The notes beneath the pieces are model-generated. The model saw only the letters and a program-made list of their open reading frames with translations, was not told the DNA's origin and ran no database searches. A stretch of DNA of 63,560 nucleotides, counting the filler, from Coriobacteriales bacterium (lineage in GTDB: Bacteria; Actinomycetota; Coriobacteriia; Coriobacteriales; UBA8131): the NCBI GenBank assembly GCA_031263105.1. It is 8 parts of 8 records of this genome, joined end to end, with 100 filler letters (N's around TTAATTAATTAA, not from the genome) between each part and the next. Parts side by side here need not be neighbours in the genome. Positions count along the whole stretch, not along the records: positions 23,985 to 33,568 come from JAISGJ010000033.1; 7 more parts are not named here. One strand, 5' to 3'. Positions 6,683 through 37,690 of the stretch are shown in pieces. A program made the translations under genes and the position numbers. Position 1 is the stretch's first letter. Every line of letters starts with the position of its first letter.

Positions 6683-6782
6683 NNNNNNNNNNNNNNNNNN
6701 NNNNNNNNNNNNNNNNNNNNNNNNNNTTAATTAATTAANNNNNNNNNNNNNNNNNNNNNNNNNNNNNNNNNNNNNNNNNNNN
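6683..6782. other. Artificial contig linker; others at 14894-14993, 23885-23984, 33569-33668, 37591-37690, 45706-45805 and 60671-60770
   Basis: N runs around TTAATTAATTAA, which has stops in all six frames. Confidence 0.98.
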
Positions 6783-14856: not shown

Positions 14857-14993
14857 TCGGGAAATGGCTATCCTACCTTTAGGATATACATAGNNNNNNN
14901 NNNNNNNNNNNNNNNNNNNNNNNNNNNNNNNNNNNNNTTAATTAATTAANNNNNNNNNNNNNNNNNNNNNNNNNNNNNNNNNNNNNNNNNNNN

Positions 14994-23114: not shown

Positions 23115-23884
23115 TCACGCAGCGCTGCCGGAGACGGCCGTTCCCTCCTCTATGGCCATGACGCGCTCGTAGGCCCGGGTGTCGCCGAAGACGGGCCTGC
23201 CGCTCCAGGGCATAACACGGTTCCTGCGCACCTTGTACACCTCGAAGACCGCGACGCCGATGTTGGCGACGAGGGCCAGGAAACTCACCGTGAACAGCGC
23301 GGTGGGGTTGAGGGAGGCCTTGACCGCAAATGCGCTCGTGTCGATGAAGGCAGGCATGGTCTGGGCGAACATGCACCAGATGGCCAGGGTGTGGGCCCGA
23401 TGCTGGAGCCAGGCGCCCTTCTTGAGGAAGAAGGCCGCAAGCGTGCAGCTTGCGAGCAGCATGACGCCCGCATAGAAGCTGTGGTCGCCTATGCAGTTGT
23501 AGGTGTAGGCGAAGTTCCAGAGGTCGTAGGCGATTATCCACGGCCAGATCTGGTCGACCCAGAGCATATCCTTCGAGGCGCCCAGCTTGGAGGCCTTGAT
23601 AGCGAACCAACCGGTGATGGTGAGGATGTTGAGGATACCGGCTGCGGCATTCATCAGATTCCAGGGGCCGGACACCATCGCCATGCCGTCGATGATCTGT
23701 CCGCTCGCCCCGAAGCTGTAGACCTGGATGTCACGGATGACGGCTTCAAGGATGTTGATCGACAAGATGAGCGGCGGAAATGCCAGCGCCAGCTTGTTCT
23801 TCTGCAACCGCGGGATATAGCGGATGGCCATGAAGCCAACGCAGCCGGCAAGCGCGGAGTAGACCTTCGCGTAATGGAACCAGT
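23115..23884 (-). CDS. DUF5692-like membrane protein, 5' end lost in the gap
   Basis: WFHYAKVYSALAGC, INILEAV, WIIAYDLWNFAYTYNC and WLQHRAHTL. Confidence 0.7.
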
Positions 23885-24009
23885 NNNNNNNNNNNNNNNN
23901 NNNNNNNNNNNNNNNNNNNNNNNNNNNNTTAATTAATTAANNNNNNNNNNNNNNNNNNNNNNNNNNNNNNNNNNNNNNNNNNNNAGTGGGGAGCGAGGCG
24001 CACGCAGCC

Positions 24010-25002
24010 TCATCCGTGGCTGAAGGTCTCCCGGTGGCGGATGCGCCTGCGGTAGATCTGCTCGCCGTAGTCCTTGCCTCCCGGGACGCCGATGGCGTCG
24101 GCGCGGCAGTGCTGGCAGTGGCGGAACACCGCGAGGTGCCTCTCGGCCTCGGAGCGCGCCCGGTCGGTTTGTGCGCAGGTCGGCGCGGGCACCTTCGACA
24201 TCTTGGCACAGGGAATCAGCGGGATGACGTTGTACAGCCCCGCACCCGCCTCCTTGACGGCGCGGGCGACCTCCCCTATCCGCCTGTCGTTCACCCCGGG
24301 GACGAGCACGGTGTTCACCTTGACGAGCATGCCGCGCTCGACCGCCGCGCGGATGCCCGCGAGCTGTTTGGCGATGAGCATCCCTGCGGCCTCGATGCCG
24401 GTGTGGAGGCGGCCGTGGTAGACGACGTGGTCGTTGATCCGCGCGAGCAGCCCTGCATCGACCTCGTTGACCGTGACGGTGAGGGTGTCGACGCCCACCT
24501 CGGCAAGCTCGTCCATCCGCTCGGCCAACAGCAGGCCGTTCGTGCTCATGCAGCGGATCATCTGGGGGAAGCGCTCCTTGACGAGACGGAAGGTCTCCAC
24601 GGCATGCGGGGTCGCCAACGGATCGCCCGGACCTGCGACGCCCACCACGGCAAGCTCCGGCGCAAGCTCCAGGGCCCGGGCGACGACCTCGAGGGCCTCT
24701 GGAGGGCCCAACACCTCCGCCGTGACGCCGGGACGCTGCTCCGTCGCATTGAGGGAGCGCTCGCAGAAGCGGCAGGCGATGTTGCAGCCGGGAGCGACGG
24801 GCAGATGGATGCGCCCCTTGTTGTTGGGCTTGCCCAAGGCGAAGCAGGGGTGCCTGGCAGAGACGAGCCCGAGCAGGCCGGTCCCCGGGCAGGGCTGCGC
24901 CCCCCGCGTGAGCGCCCCGGCCTCGGACGGGGCCGCCTCCTTGGTGCAGCCGCATCCCGCGCACGACCGTTTGCTCTCCCTATGCACGGTCTCCCTATGC
25001 AT
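24010..25002 (-). CDS. NifB-like radical SAM protein without a NifX domain (MarB-like)
   Basis: HPCF, RIHLPVAPGCNIACRFC, GVAGPGDPLA, STNGL and HCQHCRADA. Confidence 0.9.
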   Translation of the reverse strand: MHRETVHRESKRSCAGCGCTKEAAPSEAGALTRGAQPCPGTGLLGLVSARHPCFALGKPNNKGRIHLPVAPGCNIACRFCERSLNATEQRPGVTAEVLGPPEALEVVARALELAPELAVVGVAGPGDPLATPHAVETFRLVKERFPQMIRCMSTNGLLLAERMDELAEVGVDTLTVTVNEVDAGLLARINDHVVYHGRLHTGIEAAGMLIAKQLAGIRAAVERGMLVKVNTVLVPGVNDRRIGEVARAVKEAGAGLYNVIPLIPCAKMSKVPAPTCAQTDRARSEAERHLAVFRHCQHCRADAIGVPGGKDYGEQIYRRRIRHRETFSHG

Positions 25003-26338
25003 AGCTGCCCAGAACCACGTCGTAGAGGTCCTCGATGACGCGCAGGCCGCCGCTGAAGCCTACGTAGTTCGTCGTCAGGACGAGGCGGTAGGGGCATGGT
25101 GCGGCGGCGGGGAGAAAATCGTAGCCCTTCTCCTTCGCAAGCTCCTTGTCCCAGCCGCTGCCGATGATGAGGCCGCGCCCCTCGTGCGCAAGCCCGCGTA
25201 TGACACGCTGGGACGTCCCTGCGTCGGGGTCGAAGACAAGCGGTATCTCGCGCCTCGCGCTCGTCGCGGCGAGGTCGGAGCGGATGGCGGCCTTGAACTC
25301 CTCGGGCGTGTTGTCGACGACGAACTGCTCCTTGGGCACGATGCCGACCTCGTGCAGCAGGAACCTCGACAGCCCCACGACGTAGCCTGCGTCGTGAAGG
25401 ATGTGGACGTGGTTCGGCAGCCCGTAGCGGAACTCGAGCAGGAAGGTGGCGAGGTTGTCGATCTCCTCGTAGAAGCCGTGCTCCTCGTGCGCGATGAGGG
25501 CATGCACGCGCCGTTCGTCGAGAGGTGCGCCCTGTGCTGCGGCAAAGGCGGCCAGCCCCTCGAGGAAGCGCGTCGTCTCGTTCGCGCCGATGGGCGGGTA
25601 GCCGAAGCGGTAGAAGGGCTGCCCGTACTTCCGTTCGAGATGCTCGACGATGGGCAGGCCGTACCAGGGCGACACCAGCACGTTGAAGTTCGCCGCAGGG
25701 ATGGACCGCCACTCCGCAACGCCGCCGCTCTCGGGCCCGAACAGGATGTTGACTTTGAGGCCCATGGCTTCGAGCAGGCGCTTGTACTCGCGCAGGTTGC
25801 CCTTCCAGAACGGGTCCTGGTACGGCAACGAGGCGAAGACGTTGACGAGCGCCTTGTCGCTGCGCGGCAGGAAGTCGCCCACGAAGCCGTCGACGTACTG
25901 GTCGACGACGGCGCAGACGACGTCGGAATGCGCCACGAAGTTGTTGTGCTTGAAGCCTGCGGTCTCCACATGGACGAGCGGCCTGCCCTGCTCCGTGAAC
26001 TCGCCCGCCACGCTCGCCACGTCGTCGCCCACGATGTCGGCCGTGCAGCCGGTGAGGACGACCTGCAAGTCGGTGTCGAGCACCCGGTAGGTGTTCGCGA
26101 TGATGCTGCGCAGGCGCTCTGCGCCGCCGAAGACGACCTCCGTCTCGCTGAAGTTCGTGCACGGCGAGGTGCTGCCCCCTGCGTATCCCGTCGAACGCTC
26201 GTAGAAGCCCTGCACCATCGTGCCGCAGCCCGGGCCCGAATGCAGGATGGGCACCGCACGCGGGATGGCCACGACGGATTGCAGCGCACCGATGGCGCAG
26301 GTGTAGCGTTCATGTTCGATGAGGCCAGAGGCAGACAC
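24995..26338 (-). CDS. Nitrogenase-like component 1 beta subunit (group IV, MarK-like)
   Basis: RYTCAIGA, HSGPGC, VVFGG and LTGCTADIVGDD. Confidence 0.85.
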   Translation of the reverse strand: MSASGLIEHERYTCAIGALQSVVAIPRAVPILHSGPGCGTMVQGFYERSTGYAGGSTSPCTNFSETEVVFGGAERLRSIIANTYRVLDTDLQVVLTGCTADIVGDDVASVAGEFTEQGRPLVHVETAGFKHNNFVAHSDVVCAVVDQYVDGFVGDFLPRSDKALVNVFASLPYQDPFWKGNLREYKRLLEAMGLKVNILFGPESGGVAEWRSIPAANFNVLVSPWYGLPIVEHLERKYGQPFYRFGYPPIGANETTRFLEGLAAFAAAQGAPLDERRVHALIAHEEHGFYEEIDNLATFLLEFRYGLPNHVHILHDAGYVVGLSRFLLHEVGIVPKEQFVVDNTPEEFKAAIRSDLAATSARREIPLVFDPDAGTSQRVIRGLAHEGRGLIIGSGWDKELAKEKGYDFLPAAAPCPYRLVLTTNYVGFSGGLRVIEDLYDVVLGSYA

Positions 26339-26461
26339 GGCTCGGTCCTTTCTCGGTCGGATTCTTGGCGCGGCCCAGGTGCGGGGCGGGTGCGCTCCGC
26401 CCGGATGCGCTCGCGTGCCCGGCGGCCCCGTGCCCGGCGGCCCCGTGCCCGGCGGCCCTGC

Positions 26462-28003
26462 TCAGGGTACCGGCTCCAAAAAATAGGAGGGCCGCTGCTC
26501 GAGCCACCATGCGGTGTACGGGTTGACCGCGTGACGGGCGAGGTTCGTGACGAACTCGTTGTTCTCCATGACCTCGAGGATGGCCTTCCCGTAGTTCACG
26601 ACGCCCCGGTAGCCCATCCCCCACTGTTCGTCCCCGACGAGCAGCGACGGGATGCCGAGCTTGGCGCCCCACAGCGTCATGCCGCCGTGACGGGCGAGGA
26701 GCACGTCGGGGCGCATGCGGTTGAGCACGTTGACGAGCTCGAACTCCTGCTTGTTGCAGATGCTCACCTGGGGCACGTCCCCATAGTCGCGCACGCGTGC
26801 GACCAGCGAGTCCGCCTCCTCGGAACCGATGTCGTTGATCGGGTCGTGGTGGAACAGCGCCGCCCCCCGTGCCGTCATCCCCAGCTCGCCGAGGAGGGCG
26901 AGAAGGGCGTGGCCGTGGCCGGCGCCTGCCGTCACGTAGGCGGTCCTGCCCTTGAGCCGTTTGCGAAGCCCCTCGATCTGCGGCAGGAACTCCTCGCGCT
27001 CTGCGGCGATGATGCGCTCGACCGCCTCGGGCCTGCCCAACAGCTCCCCGAGGGCACGCAGCCAGCGCTCGGTCGCCGGCACGCCGTAGGGCGGCGCCGC
27101 CCTGAGCGCGGGCACGCCGAACTCGCGTTCGAGCACGCCGCTCAGATACGAGCCGAGGGTGGTGCATATCTGCACGCTCGCAAGCGCCTCGCTCGCGTGC
27201 TCGAGCGAGTCGAGCGTCGCGTAGGGCGTGAGGTAGCTGGCCTCGACGCCCAAGGGCTCGAACCAGCGCGTGAAGACGTCGCTGCCCCAGAAGTTGATGA
27301 CGTTGACGACAGGGCGCTTCTTGCGCGGGGGCTTGATGAGCTTGCGCGCGATGCCGTGGTAGCCCGCATCGAAGCCGCTCGTCCAGACCTTCGAACGGAA
27401 GCCCTCGCAGAATATCGCCACCACCGGGATGCCGAGCTCCTCCTCCGCCTCGTTGGCGACGCCCTCCACGTCGTCGCCGATGATGCCCGAGGCGCAGGTC
27501 GTGATGATGAAGACGACGTTGGGACGCTCGCGGCCGTAGACCTCGCGGATGGCTGCGGCGAGCTTCTCGTTGCCGCCGAAGACCGTCTCGTCCTCCGTGA
27601 GGTTCGTGGAGTAGATATGGCGCTGTGTGGGCCTTTCCACCCCGCGCAACGGCGCGTTGACGCGGTAGGTGAAGGCGAACTCGTGCAAGCAGGCGCTGCA
27701 GCCGACGGGGCCGTGGCTGATGACGACGCCGTCCTGCTCGAGCGTGACCATGCAGGCGGCGTTGCCCGTCGAGCAGCCGAGGCATTGCGTGAAGCTGCGC
27801 TCGCGCTCGGAGGGGCCGCCCTGACAGGACTCCCTCACAAGCGCCTCGGCACTGCCCTCGAAGCCGGTTATCGTGTTGAGCCTGACCTCCCGCACCGCGA
27901 CCGCCGGCACCTTCAGGTTGACGGTCGGCGTGCGCGGGCCGGCGGCTGCGGCGCACGGCGTGCGCGGGCCGGCGGTTGCCGTGTCCGGGTTGACGGTCGT
28001 CAT
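26462..28003 (-). CDS. Nitrogenase-like component 1 alpha subunit (group IV, MarD-like)
   Basis: REVRLNTITGF, RSFTQCLGCS, HGPVGC, TTCASGIIGDD and CEGFRS; start at 28003 after a GGAGGAG RBS. Confidence 0.85.
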   Translation of the reverse strand: MTTVNPDTATAGPRTPCAAAAGPRTPTVNLKVPAVAVREVRLNTITGFEGSAEALVRESCQGGPSERERSFTQCLGCSTGNAACMVTLEQDGVVISHGPVGCSACLHEFAFTYRVNAPLRGVERPTQRHIYSTNLTEDETVFGGNEKLAAAIREVYGRERPNVVFIITTCASGIIGDDVEGVANEAEEELGIPVVAIFCEGFRSKVWTSGFDAGYHGIARKLIKPPRKKRPVVNVINFWGSDVFTRWFEPLGVEASYLTPYATLDSLEHASEALASVQICTTLGSYLSGVLEREFGVPALRAAPPYGVPATERWLRALGELLGRPEAVERIIAAEREEFLPQIEGLRKRLKGRTAYVTAGAGHGHALLALLGELGMTARGAALFHHDPINDIGSEEADSLVARVRDYGDVPQVSICNKQEFELVNVLNRMRPDVLLARHGGMTLWGAKLGIPSLLVGDEQWGMGYRGVVNYGKAILEVMENNEFVTNLARHAVNPYTAWWLEQRPSYFLEPVP

Positions 28004-28013
28004 ACGCTCCTCC

Positions 28014-28922
28014 CTAGATCGCTTCCTGCTGGCCGCGGATCTCGCCGCTCTCCATGGCGACGAGCTGGTCCGCCCAGAGCGCACCCCACTCCTTCAGCTC
28101 GTCCGTCGAAAGGGGCACAGGCACCGTCGACGCGGCATGCCCGTCGATGCGGCGGGCGAGCTCGCGGTAGACCTTCGCCTGCCCGCTTTCCGGCGCGGCC
28201 TCGACGACCGTCTTCCCGGAAAGCTCGCTCTGCGTGACCGCAATCGAGCGCGGCACGTACTGCATGACCTGCGTATGCGTGCGCACGGCGAAGTCGTCGA
28301 CGATCTCGCGCTGGAAGGGGTGGCTCATGCTGTTCGCGATGACGCCGCCGAGCAGGGCCCCTCCCGCGTTCGAGTACTTCTGGATGCCCTTGAACAGGTT
28401 GTTCGCTGCATAGATCGCCATGAAGTCGGCGCTGGTCACCGTGAACACGTGCTGGGCGATCCCCTCGCGGATGGGCACGGCGAAGCCGCCACAGACCACG
28501 TCCCCCAGCACGTCGTAGATGACGTAGTCCAAGTCGAGTTCCTCGAAGATGCTCTGCTGCTTGAGGAGCTGCACGGCCGTGATGATGCCGCGCCCCGCGC
28601 AGCCGACGCCCGGCGCAGGCCCGCCCGCCTCGACGCAGTAGATACCGTTGTAGCCCTCGAAGATGGCGTCGTGGGCATCGACCTTCCTGTGTTCGCGGAG
28701 AAGGTCGAGCACCGTGGGGATGTAGCTGCCGTCCCGCAGCGTGTTCGTCGAGTCCGCCTTGGGGTCGCAGCCGAACTGCATGACCCGGTAGCCCTCGTCG
28801 GAAAGCGCCGCCGACAGGTTGGAGGTCGTCGTCGATTTGCCGATGCCGCCCTTGCCGTAGATGGCTATCTGTTTCGGCTGTCTTCTGCCTTGTGGTGCCA
28901 CGGGGCTTCCTTTCATCGTCAA
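28014..28922 (-). CDS. NifH-like Fe protein (group IV, MarH-like)
   Basis: [31 protein letters not shown] and [14 protein letters not shown]. Confidence 0.92.
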
Positions 28923-28997
28923 GGAAACCCTATTCTATACTATTCTTATAAGATTGCAAGGTAAAACTTGGCAGGCACGCCCTTTGTCACACCGGAT

Positions 28998-29152
28998 GTT
29001 ACTGTTCACGCCCCCACTGTCATCCCGAGCCTGCCGAGGGATCCTCGACCGCGCAAGCGGTCGACCGCAGGTCGAGGGGCCCCTGGCCTGCCGTTGGACA
29101 CTGCGTGTTCAAAGATTCCTCGGCGAGCCTCGGAATGACAGTGGGGTGTGAC
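28998..29152. repeat. Family A element whose right terminus is interrupted
   Basis: Left end GTTACTGTTCACG; right end GGGGTGTGACC lacks the usual ...CAGTAAC. Confidence 0.8.
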
Positions 29153-29396
29153 CACATATGACCCTCGCCCCTGTCAAGTGGCAATAATGGGCCGGCCCCC
29201 CTGACCCGTCGGAAAGGGGGTCGGCCCGTATATCCATTCCCTGCTTTCGGAGTCCAAAGTCGTGCCTGTCGCAGGCGCCCGTCTGGCACTCACATATTCG
29301 TGGATACGGCCTTGCCGCCCACACTACAATGCTTCGGCTGGGGCTCTTCGCTTCAAGTGGTAAGTCAGTAATCGTGCATACCGAAAAGTCCGGCGC
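29153..29396 (-). mobile_element. Putative non-coding right-end remnant of an IS110-family element
   Basis: The minus strand has ATCCACGAATATG, GC hairpins and a TTGACA...GTCATATG end, recalled as similar to IS110 ends; no transposase present. Confidence 0.45.
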
Positions 29397-30287
29397 ACGT
29401 GGGCCGGTGCCGCGCGCGACTGGTTCTCCGCCAACGGGTCCTGCAACATCTTCGACCGTGGGGCCATCACGGGCGACCCGACGAACGGCAACGTGGGCGA
29501 CGCACCGGACCAGCAGGGCGGCGGCAACATGAACTTCTGGTGGCCGGGCTCCCAGCCTTTCCTGCGCGTCAATGCGTTCGGCCAGCGCTTCTGCAATGAG
29601 GACGGCCCCTATGACGTGGCCTTCAACCTGGCCTGCATGCAGCCGGGGCATTTCTGGTGGCAGGTTTTCGACGATTCCAGCTGGGAGGACGTCGTGGCCT
29701 TTGACACCACGATCTGCAGCCGCGTCGTAGCCAAGGAAGGCGCCAAGAACTGTCTGCTGCTGGGGCAGTTCTACCCCTGCACTTCCGACGAGGAGTGGCA
29801 TTCCGTGTACCTTGACCCCAATGTTGAGAACGGCGTGCTGATCAAAGCGGACACGCTGGAAGGGCTCGCGGACCTCATGGAGTTTGATGAGGATACCAAG
29901 GCGACCTTCCTGGCAACGGTAAAGCGTTACAACGACCTGGCAGCCGGAGGTGCCGACCTCGACCACGACAAGGCGCCTTGGCGCATGACCTCCCTCGATG
30001 CGCCGCCGTATTACGCCTGCAAGCTGACAGGCTGGCTTCTCACCACCCTCTCGGGCATTCGGGTGGACGGTCGCTACAACGCCCTCACTTCTGAAGGCGT
30101 CCCGATCCCCGGCCTTAAAATGGCAGGCCTCGACCACGGCGGGTTCTTCAGCGGCATGTACGCCCAGTACTACGGAGGCCTCAATATGGCGCACAACCTC
30201 CTTGCCGCCTGGCTCGGAGCAAAAGACATCATGGGCCTTGAGCCACCGGTGGCCCTGCCCGGCGTCCAAGCCGCATACCAGGCCTGA
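29397..30287 (+). pseudogene. 5'-truncated FAD_binding_2 flavoprotein (C-terminal half only)
   Basis: WAGA..D...FDRG, GQRFCNE, PPYYA, TLSGIRVD and PIPGL; no Tat signal or GxG FAD motif. Confidence 0.75.
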
Positions 30288-30383
30288 TTCTCTCAGCGCG
30301 AAAGGAGAGTCGCTTCAGAAGGGAAGGTGCGCTGGGGAGGCAGGGATTGATCATCGCCTCCCCAGTGAGAGCAGTCACGTAAC

Positions 30384-30806
30384 CTACAATACAAAGGGAT
30401 TCAGCAGCTTTACTCCAAGAACCGTCTGACCGTGCGCCATGTCCTCGGTGTAGACGACTTGGCAGCCGGCCGATGCCGCCGCTGACAGTATCAGGCTGTC
30501 ATAGAACGAGTAGCCGGACACGAAGTGAAGGTCTACGGCCTCCTTGATCATCGCAGGCGTTATCTGGACGATGTCGAGTTTGAAGAACTCGTCCAACAGC
30601 AGCAGCATGTCGGCTTCGGAAAGCGAGAGCTTCTTGATGCAGGCGTTTGAGAACTCCTGCAAGACCTGTGTGGAGACAAGGATCCGGTGCGCATCGGCCG
30701 CATCCCGTATGAGGTCTCTGGCTATCCCCTGCTTTCTGGCATCTGCGGCGTCATGGGCATAAAAGAGGATGTTCGTATCGAGGAAGACCTTCTGCCTACC
30801 GCTCAT
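30384..30806 (-). CDS. vapC: PIN-domain (VapC) toxin
   Basis: FLDTNILFYA, STQVLQEF, SFYDSLI and YTED. Confidence 0.9.
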   Translation of the reverse strand: MSGRQKVFLDTNILFYAHDAADARKQGIARDLIRDAADAHRILVSTQVLQEFSNACIKKLSLSEADMLLLLDEFFKLDIVQITPAMIKEAVDLHFVSGYSFYDSLILSAAASAGCQVVYTEDMAHGQTVLGVKLLNPFVL

Positions 30807-31020
30807 GAAGCTCCTCGCGGTCGAACTGCCAGCCCTGTGAGTCGCCCTGTATCTGGTGCGCGACCGCATGGTAATGGGAGTACCAGCCGCCTTGGCCGTC
30901 GGCGGTGACGTCTGCGAGGAAGCCACGAATCATCTCGTTGAGCGACGTGCCGTTCTTCTGGGCGACCGACCGCGACTTCTGCAAGAGGTCGCCGTCGATG
31001 GCAAGAGTGATATTGCTCAT
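30796..31020 (-). CDS. RHH-type antitoxin (VapB/DUF6364-like)
   Basis: NITLAID..LL...TSLNEMIR...FDREELHER; overlaps vapC. Confidence 0.8.
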   Translation of the reverse strand: MSNITLAIDGDLLQKSRSVAQKNGTSLNEMIRGFLADVTADGQGGWYSHYHAVAHQIQGDSQGWQFDREELHER

Positions 31021-31195
31021 ACGCTGCTCCTTTCTGTTGCACATAGTACACATAAGGCATATATGTGTCAATATGCGTGCTACCTGCACCGTTAGGTTAT
31101 AAATGGCGACTATGAAACTTCGAATAAGGTTACATCCGACTCTTTGACACCACTGCCTACAGCACAGGCGCTCCTTTCAAGCCTGTACTAGTTCC

Positions 31196-31450
31196 TTGAG
31201 AGGACGACCGGCGCTCGTACCGCAGAGAAGCAGCGTCGTCTTTGACTATGCCGACGAGAACCTCTTTACTTCCGAGGTAAAGCGCGTTCAAAACATGGTT
31301 GCAATGGCCGAGGCAAGCGGCGAGCCAATGAAATCCTGTTTTAGCTACGCCGAACTGGAAAAGGTATTGGAGGACGCAGGGTGGCTCATCTACGGGCATC
31401 TATCCCCCGCAGAGATTGAAACCCGCTACTGTGCTACACTTTCCCCATGA
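31196..31450 (+). pseudogene. C-terminal fragment of a class I SAM-dependent methyltransferase (LCM/YktD-like)
   Basis: SSVVFDY...GEPMKSCFSY.ELE..L...G..I..HLSP.EI; no SAM-binding N-terminus. Confidence 0.6.
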
Positions 31451-31872
31451 GACTTCCTACTGGATACTTTAGCGCTGTTCAAATCGTTGCTTACATCAAC
31501 GAGACGCTTGGCGGTGCGTCCAATCAAGACGACATCGACGCGGTTTTGCGGGTACTCCCCAAGCTGATCTATGATTGGCGCGGCCTTACCGATGATGAGT
31601 TGGCCGTTGCGATCGCCGAGCCGCCCTTGTCGGGGTGCCCTGAGTTCGATGCGCTTTTTGAGGGCATTGTCGCCTATTTCTTCCACATCGAGTTGCGGCG
31701 AAACGCTCCCGAGTGGGCAAGCCGCACACGCTTGACGAGACAGTGGGTTGCTCGTCGCAGCCAAGTTGAAAAAGGCGGCGAGCGACTCTACTTCAAAATT
31801 TGGCAAAACACGCCGATTGAGATGCTGGAGCGCGGCCTGCTGTTCTCCCGTTCAGAGTTGACCTTGCTATGA
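31447..31872 (+). CDS. Hypothetical protein, partner of the downstream nucleotidyltransferase
   Basis: EPPLSG..FDA, PEW and TP..M.ERG; ATGA overlap. Confidence 0.6.
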   Translation: MRLPTGYFSAVQIVAYINETLGGASNQDDIDAVLRVLPKLIYDWRGLTDDELAVAIAEPPLSGCPEFDALFEGIVAYFFHIELRRNAPEWASRTRLTRQWVARRSQVEKGGERLYFKIWQNTPIEMLERGLLFSRSELTLL

Positions 31873-32453
31873 CGAACGCCGGCTCTTTCCCTGCTGCGGA
31901 GTTTGACCATGACGTCTTGCTCGATTTGCTTCAATCCTTTGATGAGAAATTGGGGCAAGAGGGCTTTCACGGCAGTATCTTTATAGTCGGCGGAGCAGCT
32001 ATGGCACTTGAGTACAGCGCGCTTCGTGTTACAACGGACATAGACGCCATCTTTAACCCGAGAAGTGACATTGAGGGGATTGCAGCGTCGTTTGCCGAAG
32101 AACGGGGGCTGCCAAAGGATTGGCTCAACACTCATGTCTCGGGAATGCTTGGCTATTTTAAGACTGACGAGCAGGCACGCACTGTTTTCAGTGGTGAGAA
32201 CCTGACTGTTTCTGTTGCTTCCCCTGAGTACCTTTTCGCCTCCAAGGTTATTGCGGGACGAGACAAAGACCGTGACGACGCGGCTATACTTGCCAAGAAG
32301 CTGGGGGTGTCTACCGTCTCTGGTATGCAGGTCATTGTTGAAAGATATTATCGCGGCGAAATAACTCCCGGTGAGTATCGCGGAGATGTGATTCTCTCGA
32401 TGCTCCAAGACATTGAGGATATGATTGCCGACCCTGCCAAAGACCACGATTGA
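31869..32453 (+). CDS. DUF6036-like nucleotidyltransferase (putative toxin or Abi)
   Basis: IVGGAAM, R.TTDIDA, DWLN and SK..AGRDKD.DD. Confidence 0.75.
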   Translation: MTNAGSFPAAEFDHDVLLDLLQSFDEKLGQEGFHGSIFIVGGAAMALEYSALRVTTDIDAIFNPRSDIEGIAASFAEERGLPKDWLNTHVSGMLGYFKTDEQARTVFSGENLTVSVASPEYLFASKVIAGRDKDRDDAAILAKKLGVSTVSGMQVIVERYYRGEITPGEYRGDVILSMLQDIEDMIADPAKDHD

Positions 32454-32719
32454 CGGTAGGGGTGGGGTATGGATGATAAAAGGGGGACGGGGCTACTGTC
32501 CCACTTGCGCGGCGACAACCGTTTGGAAAAAGCAAATGCCCTGTTCAGGATAGGGCTTTTGAGAACTCCGAACTAAACTCAAAATCTAATAGTCAACGAA
32601 ACGGGTGATACCGGCTGCGGTATCCGACGTCCCTTCCGCTGGTATAATTTTCCTGCCAACAAAGAATTTGCCCAGGCATCCAAGCTGCCGACACCTTGAA
32701 GATAGCGCACTATGCGAAA

Positions 32720-33568
32720 TCAACGTTGTGACATTTTACGGTATTCCCTCGGCAGCAGACCGGTTATTTCTCTGAACAACTCCGAGAAATGACTGGCGTT
32801 TTGATAGCCTACCATCTGGACAACATCCCCGATTGAAAACCCGGTATGGGCAAGCAGGTACTCGGCGTGGCTCACACGCCGTTGCTGTACGTATTCCGTA
32901 ATGGTGCAGCCATGATGACGCTTGAAGGTGTTCTTCAGTTTCGTTGTTCCCATACACGCGATTTTGGCCAACCGTTCAATCGGGAGGTCGTGAGCGAAGT
33001 GGTCGTTGATGTATGCGGAAACATCCTCGATTCGTCGGGAGTCCTCAGAAGATAAAGCCGCTCCACCTGATGGGCGGTGCTTGCAGAACCCGACCATCAA
33101 AGAGATTGCTTCCGCCACTTTGCCTTCGTAGAACAGCTTTGCCTCAATCCCATCCCCGCGATAGCTTTTCACCTGTGTAAGCAGGCGAACCATCTCAGGG
33201 AAATGCTCTGTTTGGTCAACCGCTTGGAACGCATGAACAAGGTTCTCGAATTCTTTTGGGTATTGTTTCAAAAGATACCCTTCGTAATATCCGGGGGAGA
33301 CTTCGATACCGATAGACCGGACAGGGATTTTCTTATGCATCAATACACGGTACGGCGTTTCCTTGCCGATAAACGCCTTGACGCACCCTGCGCTCACCCG
33401 CCGGTAGGGAGAAAGCTCATCGGCAGAGAACGACTCGTAATAGGTGATCCCCAGGCAGCCCGGCAACAAGAATTCAAACAGGGAATCCTCATGGAGATAG
33501 AAATCATGTATTTTTATGTTGAACAAATCCTTTTGCCCGTATATCCAAAAGGTTCCGTCGCCTGTTTC
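32720..33568 (-). CDS. AraC family regulator (PchR-like), 5' end lost in the gap
   Basis: LAKIACMGTTKLK..FK...VGYQNASHFS..FR...G.LP; lower GC than the genome average. Confidence 0.85.
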   Translation of the reverse strand, partial: ETGDGTFWIYGQKDLFNIKIHDFYLHEDSLFEFLLPGCLGITYYESFSADELSPYRRVSAGCVKAFIGKETPYRVLMHKKIPVRSIGIEVSPGYYEGYLLKQYPKEFENLVHAFQAVDQTEHFPEMVRLLTQVKSYRGDGIEAKLFYEGKVAEAISLMVGFCKHRPSGGAALSSEDSRRIEDVSAYINDHFAHDLPIERLAKIACMGTTKLKNTFKRHHGCTITEYVQQRRVSHAEYLLAHTGFSIGDVVQMVGYQNASHFSELFREITGLLPREYRKMSQR

Positions 33569-33668
33569 NNNNNNNNNNNNNNNNNNNNNNNNNNNNNNNN
33601 NNNNNNNNNNNNTTAATTAATTAANNNNNNNNNNNNNNNNNNNNNNNNNNNNNNNNNNNNNNNNNNNN

Positions 33669-37545: not shown

Positions 37546-37690
37546 CTCATAGGCCCGCCCCCGTTGTCGACAGTGCGCATAGGCCCGCCCNNNNNNNNNN
37601 NNNNNNNNNNNNNNNNNNNNNNNNNNNNNNNNNNTTAATTAATTAANNNNNNNNNNNNNNNNNNNNNNNNNNNNNNNNNNNNNNNNNNNN

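What the first reader, a model, noticed from the sequence alone, without database searches (positions are those of the whole stretch)
24010..28922. Complete group IV nitrogenase-like H-D-K-B cluster, resembling methylthio-alkane reductase
Seen: the NifH-like protein has DSTNTL rather than the DSTRL of true NifH; D and K carry P-cluster cysteines, but D lacks a recognisable MHSWDY FeMo-co histidine motif; NifB is the stand-alone type; no nifEN on this contig. Known: MarBHDK cleaves C-S bonds of methylthio-alkanes for sulfur scavenging and releases methane or ethylene. Inference: a Mar-like or related reductase in a probable gut-type Coriobacteriia, which nifH surveys could miscount as nitrogen fixation.
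Basis: partly seen in the sequence, partly recalled or inferred. Interest (0 to 1): 0.75.

Follow-up and report, generated by a model that had tools for sequence, protein, structure and literature searches.

The report
Nfa-type nitrogenase-like cluster, not Mar
This Coriobacteriales genome carries an intact four-gene nitrogenase look-alike of the already named but biochemically unsolved Group IV-A ("Nfa") type, a neighbour of the sulfur-scavenging Mar enzyme and not a true nitrogen fixer, so it is an ordinary new member in a new host lineage.

Summary
Four intact minus-strand genes, H (28014-28922), D (26462-28003), K (24995-26338) and B (24010-25002), encode a nitrogenase-like Fe protein, a D/K core with all six P-cluster cysteines plus the Mar-type Cys/His cofactor ligands, and a stand-alone NifB-like maturase.

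The window is a chain of MAG contigs joined by N-linkers. The cluster lies on a 9,584-bp contig, and B ends 26 bp from its edge.

The Mar reading is only partly right. D and K fall in the clade that the North laboratory labels Group IV-A (Nfa, Endomicrobium proavitum type), not in Group IV-C (Mar):
- D is 67-68% identical to IV-A-type Clostridia and 38-42% to the 9FMG-like clade.
- An AU test rejects union with that clade (p 1.3e-5).
- D has the Nfa-specific extra cysteines.
- Two Mar active-site residues are replaced (Gln74 to Met, His194 to Val).

IV-A function is unsettled. N2 reduction is claimed in two organisms, and no Mar activity was seen in heterologous screens. Gene context in relatives points to sulfur: Cys/Met enzymes in 34 of 50 loci, SsuA-type binding proteins in 29 of 50, PII in 0 of 50.

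The cluster occurs in 12 of 34 genomes of the host family and in 2 of 401 sampled genomes of the class. Kin carry a conserved small-ORF plus terminator leader upstream of H, which this copy lacks. Earlier scan notes reached the same IV-A/sulfur reading on other genomes.

The parts
28014..28922 (-). nfaH-like Fe protein (ATP-dependent reductase, NflH 'Group II' type). Probable true start is GTG 28901 or ATG 28916.
   Evidence: 497 bits to MarH 9fmg_D against 295 bits to the NifH structure 1cp2. Walker A, DSTNTL, C108, C144; start position by comparison with kin.
26462..28003 (-). nfaD-like catalytic subunit, 513 aa. P-cluster Cys are C77, C102 and C170. Extra Nfa-type Cys are C74, C84 and C105. 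Cofactor ligands are C280 and H439.
24995..26338 (-). nfaK-like subunit, 447 aa. P-cluster Cys are C14, C38 and C98.
24010..25002 (-). nfaB/NifB-like radical SAM maturase, stand-alone with no NifX domain. It has HPCF at residue 51 and CNIACRFC at residue 73.
   Evidence: 283 bits to the NifB structures 7jma/7bi7..
28932..28959 (-). Sigma-70-like promoter site TTGCAA-16-TAGAAT directly upstream of H. The same promoter-like motif lies about 240 nt upstream of H in L069.
23885..23984 (.). Artificial contig joint (N runs around a six-frame stop linker). DNA to its left belongs to another contig.
33569..33668 (.). Artificial contig joint marking the other end of the cluster's 9,584-bp contig.
29493..30287 (+). 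C-terminal remnant of an FAD-binding flavoprotein gene upstream of H. Together with PIN and nucleotidyltransferase genes further on, it replaces the Cys/Met-enzyme genes seen at this place in kin.

Best explanation
The cluster encodes a Group IV-A ('Nfa', Endomicrobium proavitum type) nitrogenase-like two-component reductase.

Inferred by homology to the solved R. rubrum Mar complex:
- An H dimer with one [4Fe-4S] cluster hydrolyses ATP and passes electrons to a (DK)2 core.
- The core holds a P-type [8Fe-7S] cluster at the D/K interface and an L-type [8Fe-9S-C] cluster on D, bound by C280 and H439.
- The stand-alone NifB-like B makes that cluster without NifEN, molybdenum or homocitrate.

Shown here: the gene set, all ligands, and clade membership.

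Inferred role: reductive release of assimilable sulfur from an imported organosulfur compound, different from the three known Mar substrates. The product would go to cysteine or O-acetylhomoserine sulfhydrylase-type enzymes. The substrate pocket differs from Mar at two positions (Met for Gln74, Val for His194).

In this genome the operon appears to be driven directly by its promoter, because the leader found in kin is absent.
For: Classification:
- D is 68% identical to Kineothrix and 67% to Acetivibrio thermocellus D. It is 38-42% identical to the 9FMG-like clade and 26% to a NifD-like protein.
- The mBio 2026 Table S1 labels the A. thermocellus, Butyrivibrio fibrisolvens and E. proavitum systems NflD group A.
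- By eye, the printed N-termini of the B. fibrisolvens D and the E. proavitum K match ours far better than the IV-C ones do: about 77 of 127 and 95 of 128 positions.
- In the trees, the query lies in an 8-row Coriobacteriales clade (support 100) inside a 24-row clade (99). The 6-row clade anchored by P0131 (616 bits to 9fmg_A) is separate (100). The AU test against union gives p 1.3e-5.
- Nfa-specific cysteines (NfaD C50, C60 and C81 in the Chem Rev review) are present with exact spacing: 32 of 32 and 31 of 32 IV-A core rows have the C50 and C81 equivalents, against 0 of 6 IV-C rows.
- All P-cluster and L-cluster ligands are kept.
- B scores 283 bits to solved NifB.

Sulfur role:
- In 10 of 10 IV-A loci scanned with Pfam, the D-K-X-B genes are embedded among Cys/Met PLP enzymes, cysteine-synthase-like genes, and SsuA/NMT1- or MetQ-type ABC importers.
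- Over all 50 related loci: Cys/Met PLP enzyme 34, NMT1-type binding protein 29, MetQ 16, CysK-like 14, PII 0.
- In family kin, a cystathionine-lyase-like gene lies divergent from H (L124, L027) or a CysK-like gene lies just upstream of H (L126).
- Two SAM riboswitches flank a basal IV-A-type DK pair in L028.
- The own genome has an OAH/OAS sulfhydrylase (632.5 bits, above the cut-off) and three paralogues.
Against: - On this contig no sulfur gene is next to the cluster.
- No IV-A reference sequence could be put into my trees. The group label rests on organism names, on Table S1 read by eye, and on residue signatures.
- For IV-A, the only physiology in print points to nitrogen: acetylene reduction, 15N2 uptake and ammonium repression of nfaH in E. 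proavitum, and diazotrophic growth of Heliophilum fasciatum (passages read).
- The 13 IV-A systems tested in R. rubrum showed no relevant activity on DMS, EMS or methylthioethanol, except C. magnum on DMS. A sulfur substrate is therefore hypothetical.
- Neighbouring cysteine genes could merely feed the heavy Fe-S demand of the enzyme.
- The leader peptide of kin is rich in Arg, Asn and His as well as Met and Cys, so it does not decide between sulfur and nitrogen.
Confidence: 0.55

Rival explanations
1. It is a working, slow nitrogenase (Nfa in the sense used for Endomicrobium proavitum). It would reduce N2, or nitrite/N2O, to ammonium with an L-type cluster and make these Coriobacteriales diazotrophs.
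For: It belongs to the same named clade as the E. proavitum and H. fasciatum systems, for which acetylene reduction, 15N2 incorporation and ammonium repression are reported (passages). The gene set H-D-K-B equals the NfaBHDK set. The conserved leader peptide core in kin has three Arg, one Asn and one His, which could sense nitrogen starvation.
Against: - D lacks the nitrogenase residues Val70, Gln191 and His195; it has Cys, Trp and Phe, as Mar does.
- PII genes are found in 0 of 50 related loci, while sulfur genes are found in 34 of 50.
- The review itself questions whether N2 fixation is the primary function.
- SAM riboswitches flank a basal member.
Confidence: 0.2
2. It is a methylthio-alkane reductase in function. 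It would cleave DMS, ethyl methyl sulfide or methylthioethanol to methanethiol plus methane, ethane or ethylene.
For: - The best solved relatives are MarD, MarK and MarH.
- It has the same ligands and most pocket residues: Cys73, Trp195, Phe199, His375 and Arg428 equivalents.
- H is of the MarH-like Group II type.
- An OAH sulfhydrylase is present in the genome.
- One IV-A system (C. magnum) made methane from DMS above the threshold.
Against: - D is outside the 9FMG-like clade.
- The Gln74 and His194 equivalents are Met and Val here. They are Met in 27 of 32 and Val/Ile in 32 of 32 IV-A core rows, against Gln and His in 6 of 6 IV-C rows.
- 13 of 43 IV-A systems were tested without relevant activity on methylthioethanol or EMS.
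Confidence: 0.1
3. It reduces some other substrate unrelated to sulfur or nitrogen assimilation, such as a cofactor or a xenobiotic, or it is a decaying relic.
For: No substrate is known for the clade. This copy has lost the NifX gene and the leader that kin have, and it lies beside a low-GC island with toxin-antitoxin-like genes.
Against: All four ORFs are intact with every ligand conserved. The cluster is kept in 12 of 34 family genomes. NifX-less Mar systems work with the help of other maturases.
Confidence: 0.1

Closest known systems
NfaBHDK of Endomicrobium proavitum (Group IV-A nitrogen-fixation-like system)
   Same: - Four-gene set.
- Six P-cluster cysteines plus the extra D cysteines at the same spacing.
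- Cys/His cofactor pair.
- Group II-type H.
- The printed K N-terminus is about 74% identical by eye.
   Different: - The host phylum is Actinomycetota rather than Elusimicrobiota.
- The gene order is H-D-K-B, with no NifX gene in this genome.
- No physiological data exist here.
- The E. proavitum sequences could not be placed in my tree.
Methylthio-alkane reductase MarBHDK of Rhodospirillum rubrum (Group IV-C; PDB 9FMG, 9D9U)
   Same: - Closest solved structure (398, 385 and 497 bits).
- Same cluster ligands.
- NifEN-independent maturation by a NifB homologue.
- Trp195, Phe199, His375 and Arg428 equivalents are kept.
   Different: - Separate clade, about 40% identity.
- Gln74 is Met and His194 is Val here.
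- Two extra cysteines lie near the P-cluster site.
- K has Ser where MarK has Cys52, next to the second P-cluster cysteine.
Molybdenum nitrogenase NifHDK with NifB/NifEN (Groups I-III)
   Same: Two-component ATP-driven architecture, P-cluster cysteines, the Cys275-equivalent ligand, and NifB chemistry.
   Different: - D scores 124 bits against the nifD cut-off of 653.55.
- No Val70/Gln191/His195.
- The histidine ligand sits on a different loop.
- No NifEN was found in the assembly.
Group IV-A clusters of Clostridia (e.g. Acetivibrio thermocellus, Kineothrix alysoides, Faecalispora)
   Same: D is 67-68% and K 72-74% identical, with the same residue signature.
   Different: - Those clusters run D-K-X-B, then a sulfhydrylase, then an SsuA-type ABC importer, then a Group I H, inside a Cys/Met gene block.
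- The Coriobacteriales form is H(Group II)-D-K-(X)-B behind its own leader.

Membership tests
Group IV-A Nfa (NfaBHDK) | NflD falls in the IV-A clade of the nitrogenase/NFL tree. | tested here: met
   - Clade support is 99-100.
- D is 67% identical to A. thermocellus D, whose system is labelled group A in Table S1.
- The printed N-termini of the B. fibrisolvens (A), Lachnospiraceae AC2014 (A) and Methylomusa (A) D proteins match the core and basal sub-clades by eye.
- Caveat: no reference sequence was in the tree.
Group IV-A Nfa (NfaBHDK) | Six P-cluster cysteines (NfaD C53, C78, C146; NfaK C13, C37, C97). | tested here: met
   D has C77, C102 and C170; K has C14, C38 and C98.
Group IV-A Nfa (NfaBHDK) | Additional D cysteines near the P site (NfaD C50, C60, C81). 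| tested here: met
   D has C74, C84 and C105 with the same spacing (x2, x6, x17, x2). The C50 and C81 equivalents are absent from 6 of 6 IV-C rows.
Group IV-A Nfa (NfaBHDK) | Cys257 plus the Mar-type histidine for an L-like cluster, and a NifB-like maturase with all motifs. | tested here: met
   D has C280 and H439. B has HPCF and CX3CX2C motifs and scores 283 bits to NifB structures.
Group IV-A Nfa (NfaBHDK) | N2 or acetylene reduction, with expression repressed by ammonium. | not testable with these tools
   Known only from cultures of E. proavitum and H. fasciatum (passages read).
Group IV-C methylthio-alkane reductase (MarBHDK) | NflD falls in the IV-C clade with R. rubrum MarD. | tested here: not met
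   The 9FMG-like clade is separate with support 100. Union with it is rejected (delta lnL 108.7, AU p 1.3e-5; the group was named after the tree was seen).
Group IV-C methylthio-alkane reductase (MarBHDK) | Pocket residues around the S2B site as in MarD: Cys73, Gln74, His194, Trp195, Phe199, His375, Arg428. | tested here: not met
   Five of the seven are kept. Gln74 is Met and His194 is Val.
Group IV-C methylthio-alkane reductase (MarBHDK) | Minimal gene set B, H, D, K without NifEN. | tested here: met
Group IV-C methylthio-alkane reductase (MarBHDK) | Hydrocarbon release from DMS, EMS or methylthioethanol. | not testable with these tools
   In print this was negative for 13 tested IV-A systems, except C. 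magnum on DMS.
Canonical nitrogenase (Groups I-III) | D/K reach the NifD/NifK (or Vnf/Anf) equivalog scores and carry Val70, Gln191 and His195. NifEN is present. | tested here: not met
   - nifD scores 124 against 653.55 bits; nifK scores 68 against 427 bits.
- Cys, Trp and Phe stand at the three positions.
- The genome has six PF00148 matches, none of NifE/N grade. The assembly is 86% complete.

The most novel reading that the evidence does not exclude
The Coriobacteriales Nfa system is a genuine, FeMo-co-independent nitrogenase. It would be switched on by a nascent-peptide leader that senses nitrogen starvation through its Arg/Asn/His-rich core. That would make a family of Actinomycetota diazotrophic with only four genes, and the window's leader-less copy would be a naturally de-repressed variant.
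Probability: 0.1. Interest if true: 0.8.

Novelty: new member of a known kind. Interest (0 to 1): 0.4.

Why it matters
- Annotation: H passes NCBI's nifH model, and a second NifH-like gene in the same genome scores even higher. Yet the genome has no nitrogenase-grade D/K or NifEN, so marker-gene counts of diazotrophs would be inflated by such genomes.
- Host range: the papers I read list Group IV hosts as Clostridia, Negativicutes, Bacilli, Fibrobacteria, Bacteroidia, Alphaproteobacteria and Elusimicrobia. A Coriobacteriales family in which about a third of the genomes carry the cluster extends this list.
- Open question: whether IV-A enzymes fix nitrogen or mobilise sulfur is unsettled. The compact H-D-K-(X)-B operon of this family has a MarH-like H, which is compatible with the published R. 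rubrum test host, and a dedicated leader in kin. That makes it a convenient test case.

Tried and rejected
1. DUF5692 membrane protein gene (23115-23831) as part of the operon. Rejected: it lies beyond an artificial contig joint.
2. Contig C9 of the same genome as the continuation after B. C9 runs OAH-sulfhydrylase-like, SsuC-like, SsuA-family, CysK-like, and begins with a poly-C run. Its ends share no sequence with the cluster's contig, and kin do not have this module after B. Unsupported.
3. Getting E. proavitum or R. hungatei reference proteins into the tree.
   - The genome-contig scan returned 50 loci, none of them these organisms.
   - The K search listed only hits of 70% identity or more.
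   - Cluster look-ups gave no matching accession.
   - Sequences printed in the paper's supplement were compared by eye only and not fed to any tool.
   - The Newick file of the paper's tree is held only as its first 429 characters.
4. Riboswitch reading of the conserved element upstream of H in kin. There is no Rfam match at gathering score or at E up to 5, and third-position variation shows that it is coding.
5. Rfam on the cluster's contig: nothing at E up to 0.1.
6. Expression data: no RNA holder listed.
7. The Zheng et al. 2016 paper is not held.
8. Papers linking nitrogenase-like genes to Coriobacteriia:
   - 'nitrogenase-like' + 'Coriobacteri': 0 papers.
   - 'Coriobacteri' + 'nifH' + 'termite gut': 1 paper, with no statement on such genes.
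   - 'Group IV' + nitrogenase + Coriobacteri + termite: 3 unrelated papers.
Full report
**What is there.** The window is high in G+C, so many long spurious ORFs appear. The real genes in 24010-28922 are on the minus strand.
- H is 28014-28922, D is 26462-28003, K is 24995-26338 and B is 24010-25002.
- H hits Fer4_NifH (335.6 bits). It just passes NCBI's nifH equivalog (405.3 against 394.35 bits).
- D and K hit only the general Oxidored_nitro domain. They are far below every Nif, Vnf, Anf or NifEN cut-off (nifD 124 against 653.55 bits).
- B is a radical SAM protein scoring 259.8 bits on nifB, below the 343.65 cut-off, with no NifX domain.

**The window is not one piece of DNA.** Seven 100-bp joints, each a run of N around a six-frame stop linker, divide it into eight contigs of a 250-contig, 2.9-Mb assembly. 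That assembly is 86% complete with 6.5% contamination.
- The cluster's contig is window 23985-33568 (9,584 bp), and B stops 26 bp from its end.
- The DUF5692 gene to the left is therefore no neighbour, and what follows B is unknown.
- Upstream of H lie a C-terminal remnant of a flavoprotein gene, then PIN, nucleotidyltransferase and AraC-type genes in a lower-GC stretch.

**The rest of the genome.** PF00148 matches six places, forming three D/K-like pairs. One pair is this one. The other two sit on other contigs inside iron-chelate-type ABC transporter clusters, each with its own NifH-like gene, and neither approaches NifE/N scores.
- There are three NifH-like genes, only one NifB-like gene, and no NifX-type domain.
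- An OAH/OAS sulfhydrylase scores above its cut-off (632.5 bits), and three paralogues score just below.
- One PII gene lies elsewhere in the genome.

**Solved relatives.** D, K and H match the chains of 9FMG/9D9U best: 398, 385 and 497 bits, against 137, 65 and 295 bits for the next entries. Passages of the Nature Catalysis 2025 paper identify 9FMG as the R. rubrum MarDK-MarH complex and name its residues:
- P-cluster ligands: MarD C66, C91, C158 and MarK C32, C56, C121.
- [Fe8S9C] cluster ligands: MarD C270 and H429.
- Pocket residues: C73, Q74, H194, W195, F199, H375 and R428.

Through the printed alignments, every ligand is conserved here. Two pocket residues differ: Met for Q74 and Val for H194.

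**Which Group IV clade.** No other Group IV clade has a structure, so the PDB result cannot decide this.
- Word-indexed search: the best D hits are unnamed or 'Coriobacteriales bacterium' MAG proteins at 73-85% identity, followed by many Clostridia at 65-68%, including Acetivibrio thermocellus. K behaves the same way.
- Exhaustive search of 50%-identity representatives: the query's own cluster representative is 66% identical, and the next full-length one only 42%.
- mBio 2026 paper (sections read; Table S1 parts): it divides Group IV NflD into clades A and C-F. It finds Mar activity only in IV-C (15 of 20 tested at or above threshold). None of the tested IV-A (13 of 43), D, E or F systems was active, except C. 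magnum on DMS.
- Table S1 labels the A. thermocellus, B. fibrisolvens and E. proavitum systems group A.
- By eye, the printed 5' parts of the B. fibrisolvens D gene and the E. proavitum K gene match ours at about 77 of 127 and 95 of 128 residues. The IV-C entries (R. hungatei C, Pleomorphomonas, R. rubrum) carry the clearly different Mar-type motifs.
- These supplement sequences were not stored proteins, so I did not feed them to any tool.

**Trees.** I collected D-type proteins from three sources:
- 50 named loci.
- All PF00148 paralogues of five of those genomes.
- Full-length 50%-identity representatives.

After dropping all but four of the near-redundant 'OH_' Bacillota MAG rows and five duplicate rows, 105 rows went into FastTree. 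A 48-row subset went into IQ-TREE with LG+C20. In both trees:
- The query lies in a clade of eight Coriobacteriales rows (support 100).
- That clade sits inside a clade with Bacillota, Synergistaceae, Treponema and Olsenella rows (99).
- The clade that holds P0131, a representative scoring 616 bits to 9fmg_A, is separate (100).
- An intermediate clade scores 453 bits to 9fmg_A and a further one 313 bits.

Holding the Coriobacteriales and the 9FMG-like rows together costs 108.7 log-likelihood units (AU p 1.3e-5). I named this group after seeing the tree.

**Residue signatures agree.**

| Position | IV-A core (32 rows) | 9FMG-like (6 rows) |
|---|---|---|
| NfaD C50 equivalent | Cys in 32 | absent in all 6 |
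| NfaD C81 equivalent | Cys in 31 | absent in all 6 |
| MarD Q74 | Met in 27 | Gln in 6 |
| MarD H194 | Val or Ile in 32 | His in 6 |

Both groups share W195, F199, H375, R428, H429 and C270. The seven Nif-type rows instead have Val at the MarD C73 position (7 of 7) and, in 5 of 7, Gln and His at the W195 and F199 positions. The extra cysteines are exactly those listed for E. proavitum NfaD in the 2026 Chemical Reviews article (passages).

**What Group IV-A does is not known.** The review and two other papers (passages) report three things:
- Acetylene reduction, 15N2 uptake and ammonium-repressed nfaH in E. proavitum.
- Diazotrophic growth of Heliophilum fasciatum without a canonical nitrogenase.
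- No enzyme has been purified, and the review doubts that N2 is the main substrate.

**Gene context points to sulfur.** Of 147 ORFs called in 11 loci, I scanned 122 from 10 loci with Pfam. All 14 ORFs of L034 and 11 short or antisense ORFs were left out. Every one of the 10 loci had Cys/Met PLP enzymes, cysteine-synthase-like genes, or SsuA/NMT1- or MetQ-type importers around D-K-X-B, and none had a PII gene.

Seed searches over all 50 loci gave these counts (flanks vary in length, and the two Cys/Met seeds cross-hit):

| Gene type | Loci of 50 |
|---|---|
| Cys/Met PLP enzyme | 34 |
| NMT1-type binding protein | 29 |
| MetQ | 16 |
| CysK-like | 14 |
| NifX | 27 |
| PII | 0 |

NCBIfam names the neighbours as cystathionine lyase/synthase-like, cysteine-synthase-like, OAH/OAS-sulfhydrylase-like and SsuA-family, all below the equivalog cut-offs. 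One basal IV-A-type pair (L028) is flanked by two SAM riboswitches. On balance I favour a sulfur-mobilising reductase with an unknown substrate, but only modestly.

**Distribution.**
- A D relative at E up to 1e-60 was found in 2 of 401 sampled genomes of the class. One is the window's own genome; the other is 60% identical.
- In the host family it was found in 12 of 34 genomes (9 of 19 genera, counts including the window's genome). Ten of the 33 others have a copy at 71-84% identity.
- Four of them also carry a second, 51-53% identical copy.
- All family genomes are incomplete MAGs, so absences are soft.
- Family kin have the order H-D-K-X-B. A cystathionine-lyase-like gene lies divergent from H (L124, L027), or a CysK-like gene lies just upstream (L126).
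- The window's copy has no X gene and different upstream DNA.

**A leader that this copy lacks.** Aligning the DNA upstream of H shows the following elements, in order, in all nine kin loci where that DNA is assembled:
- A promoter-like site.
- A 40-52-codon ORF whose first roughly 27 codons are conserved at the protein level (core KLGGAR(M/V)RCRNHG-x-MP), with changes mostly at third codon positions.
- A short hairpin, then a variable spacer.
- A GC-rich hairpin with a T-run just before the H ribosome-binding site. This hairpin carries compensatory changes.

Other results on this leader:
- The degenerate pattern for the core occurs once in each of 9 of the 33 other family genomes, always at this place. 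It is absent from the window's genome and from reversed controls.
- It is absent from the Bacillota and Olsenella loci.
- It matches no Rfam family at E up to 5, and no Pfam family (5 of the 9 peptides scanned, E up to 10).
- In the window the promoter-like site (28959-28932) lies immediately before the H start. About 200 nt of leader are missing, and the operon is probably no longer attenuated.
- What the leader senses is open. It contains Cys and Met codons but also three Arg, one Asn and one His.

**Verdict.** The finding is real and the family assignment 'Group IV' is right. The specific Mar label is not: this is a new member, in a new host lineage, of the named but uncharacterised Group IV-A.

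**Earlier notes.** Two earlier notes of this scan, on other genomes, reached the same IV-A/sulfur reading. A third describes iron-importer-linked sets like the two extra ones in this genome.

Noticed in passing
L069:6867-7124, L022:4585-4813, L026:4051-4281, L124:4504-4740, L027:4997-5242, L126:8689-8952 (minus), L030:119-330, L029:2865-3100, L048:235-440; absent at window 28923-28960: A conserved leader sits upstream of nfaH in nine family genomes. It consists of a promoter-like site, a 40-52-codon small ORF with the core KLGGAR(M/V)RCRNHG-x-MP, a hairpin, and an intrinsic-terminator-like hairpin. It occurs once per genome and only at this place. It has no Rfam or Pfam match. It is missing in the window's copy, where the promoter abuts H. 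It may be a peptide-dependent attenuator; the signal it senses is unknown.
   Followed up: partly
G000 contig C221 (L007:263-6285) and contig C232 (L008:167-8563): The same genome holds two more nitrogenase-like sets, both embedded in FecCD/FecE/FhuB-type chelate ABC transporter clusters.
- C221 has a 252-aa NifH-like gene plus 516- and 493-aa Oxidored_nitro proteins.
- C232 has two short (236 and 286 aa) Oxidored_nitro ORFs and a NifH-like protein scoring 439 bits on the nifH model, above its cut-off.
   Followed up: partly
window 6683-6782, 14894-14993, 23885-23984, 33569-33668, 37591-37690, 45706-45805, 60671-60770: The window is eight MAG contigs joined by 100-bp linkers of N around a six-frame stop sequence. 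Gene neighbourhood across these joints is artificial.
   Followed up: yes
L028:7133-7238 (minus) and L028:7733-7833 (plus): Two SAM riboswitches (87.8 and 91.9 bits) face outward from one intergenic region in Candidatus Clostridium eludens. One leads into a basal IV-A-type D-K pair. The other leads into a Cys/Met-enzyme plus SsuA-type ABC operon.
   Followed up: no
G000 contig C9 (L123:152-5599): A sulfur module runs OAH/OAS-sulfhydrylase-like (472 bits), SsuC/TauC-like permease, SsuA-family binding protein, then cysteine-synthase-like gene. It starts 150 bp from a contig end that begins with a poly-C run. It resembles the module that follows B in Clostridial IV-A loci, but linkage to the cluster could not be shown.
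   Followed up: partly
L069:3322-6436 (minus); also G408:C29, G413:C73, G414:C197: Four family genomes carry a second D/K pair, only 51-53% identical to the first. In L069 it lies head to head with the nfa operon and next to an ABC transporter. It branches at the base of the IV-A clade.
   Followed up: no
G004 (genome of locus L028): The Candidatus Clostridium eludens genome has 37 PF00148 matches. These are many paralogous nitrogenase-like D/K pairs, including several 9FMG-like ones, besides Nif-type sets.
   Followed up: no
window 30384-32453: A lower-GC stretch (0.52-0.56) beside the cluster holds a PIN-domain gene and a DUF6036/AbiEii-type nucleotidyltransferase gene, followed by an AraC-type regulator at 32720-33526. 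It looks like a small accessory island.
   Followed up: no
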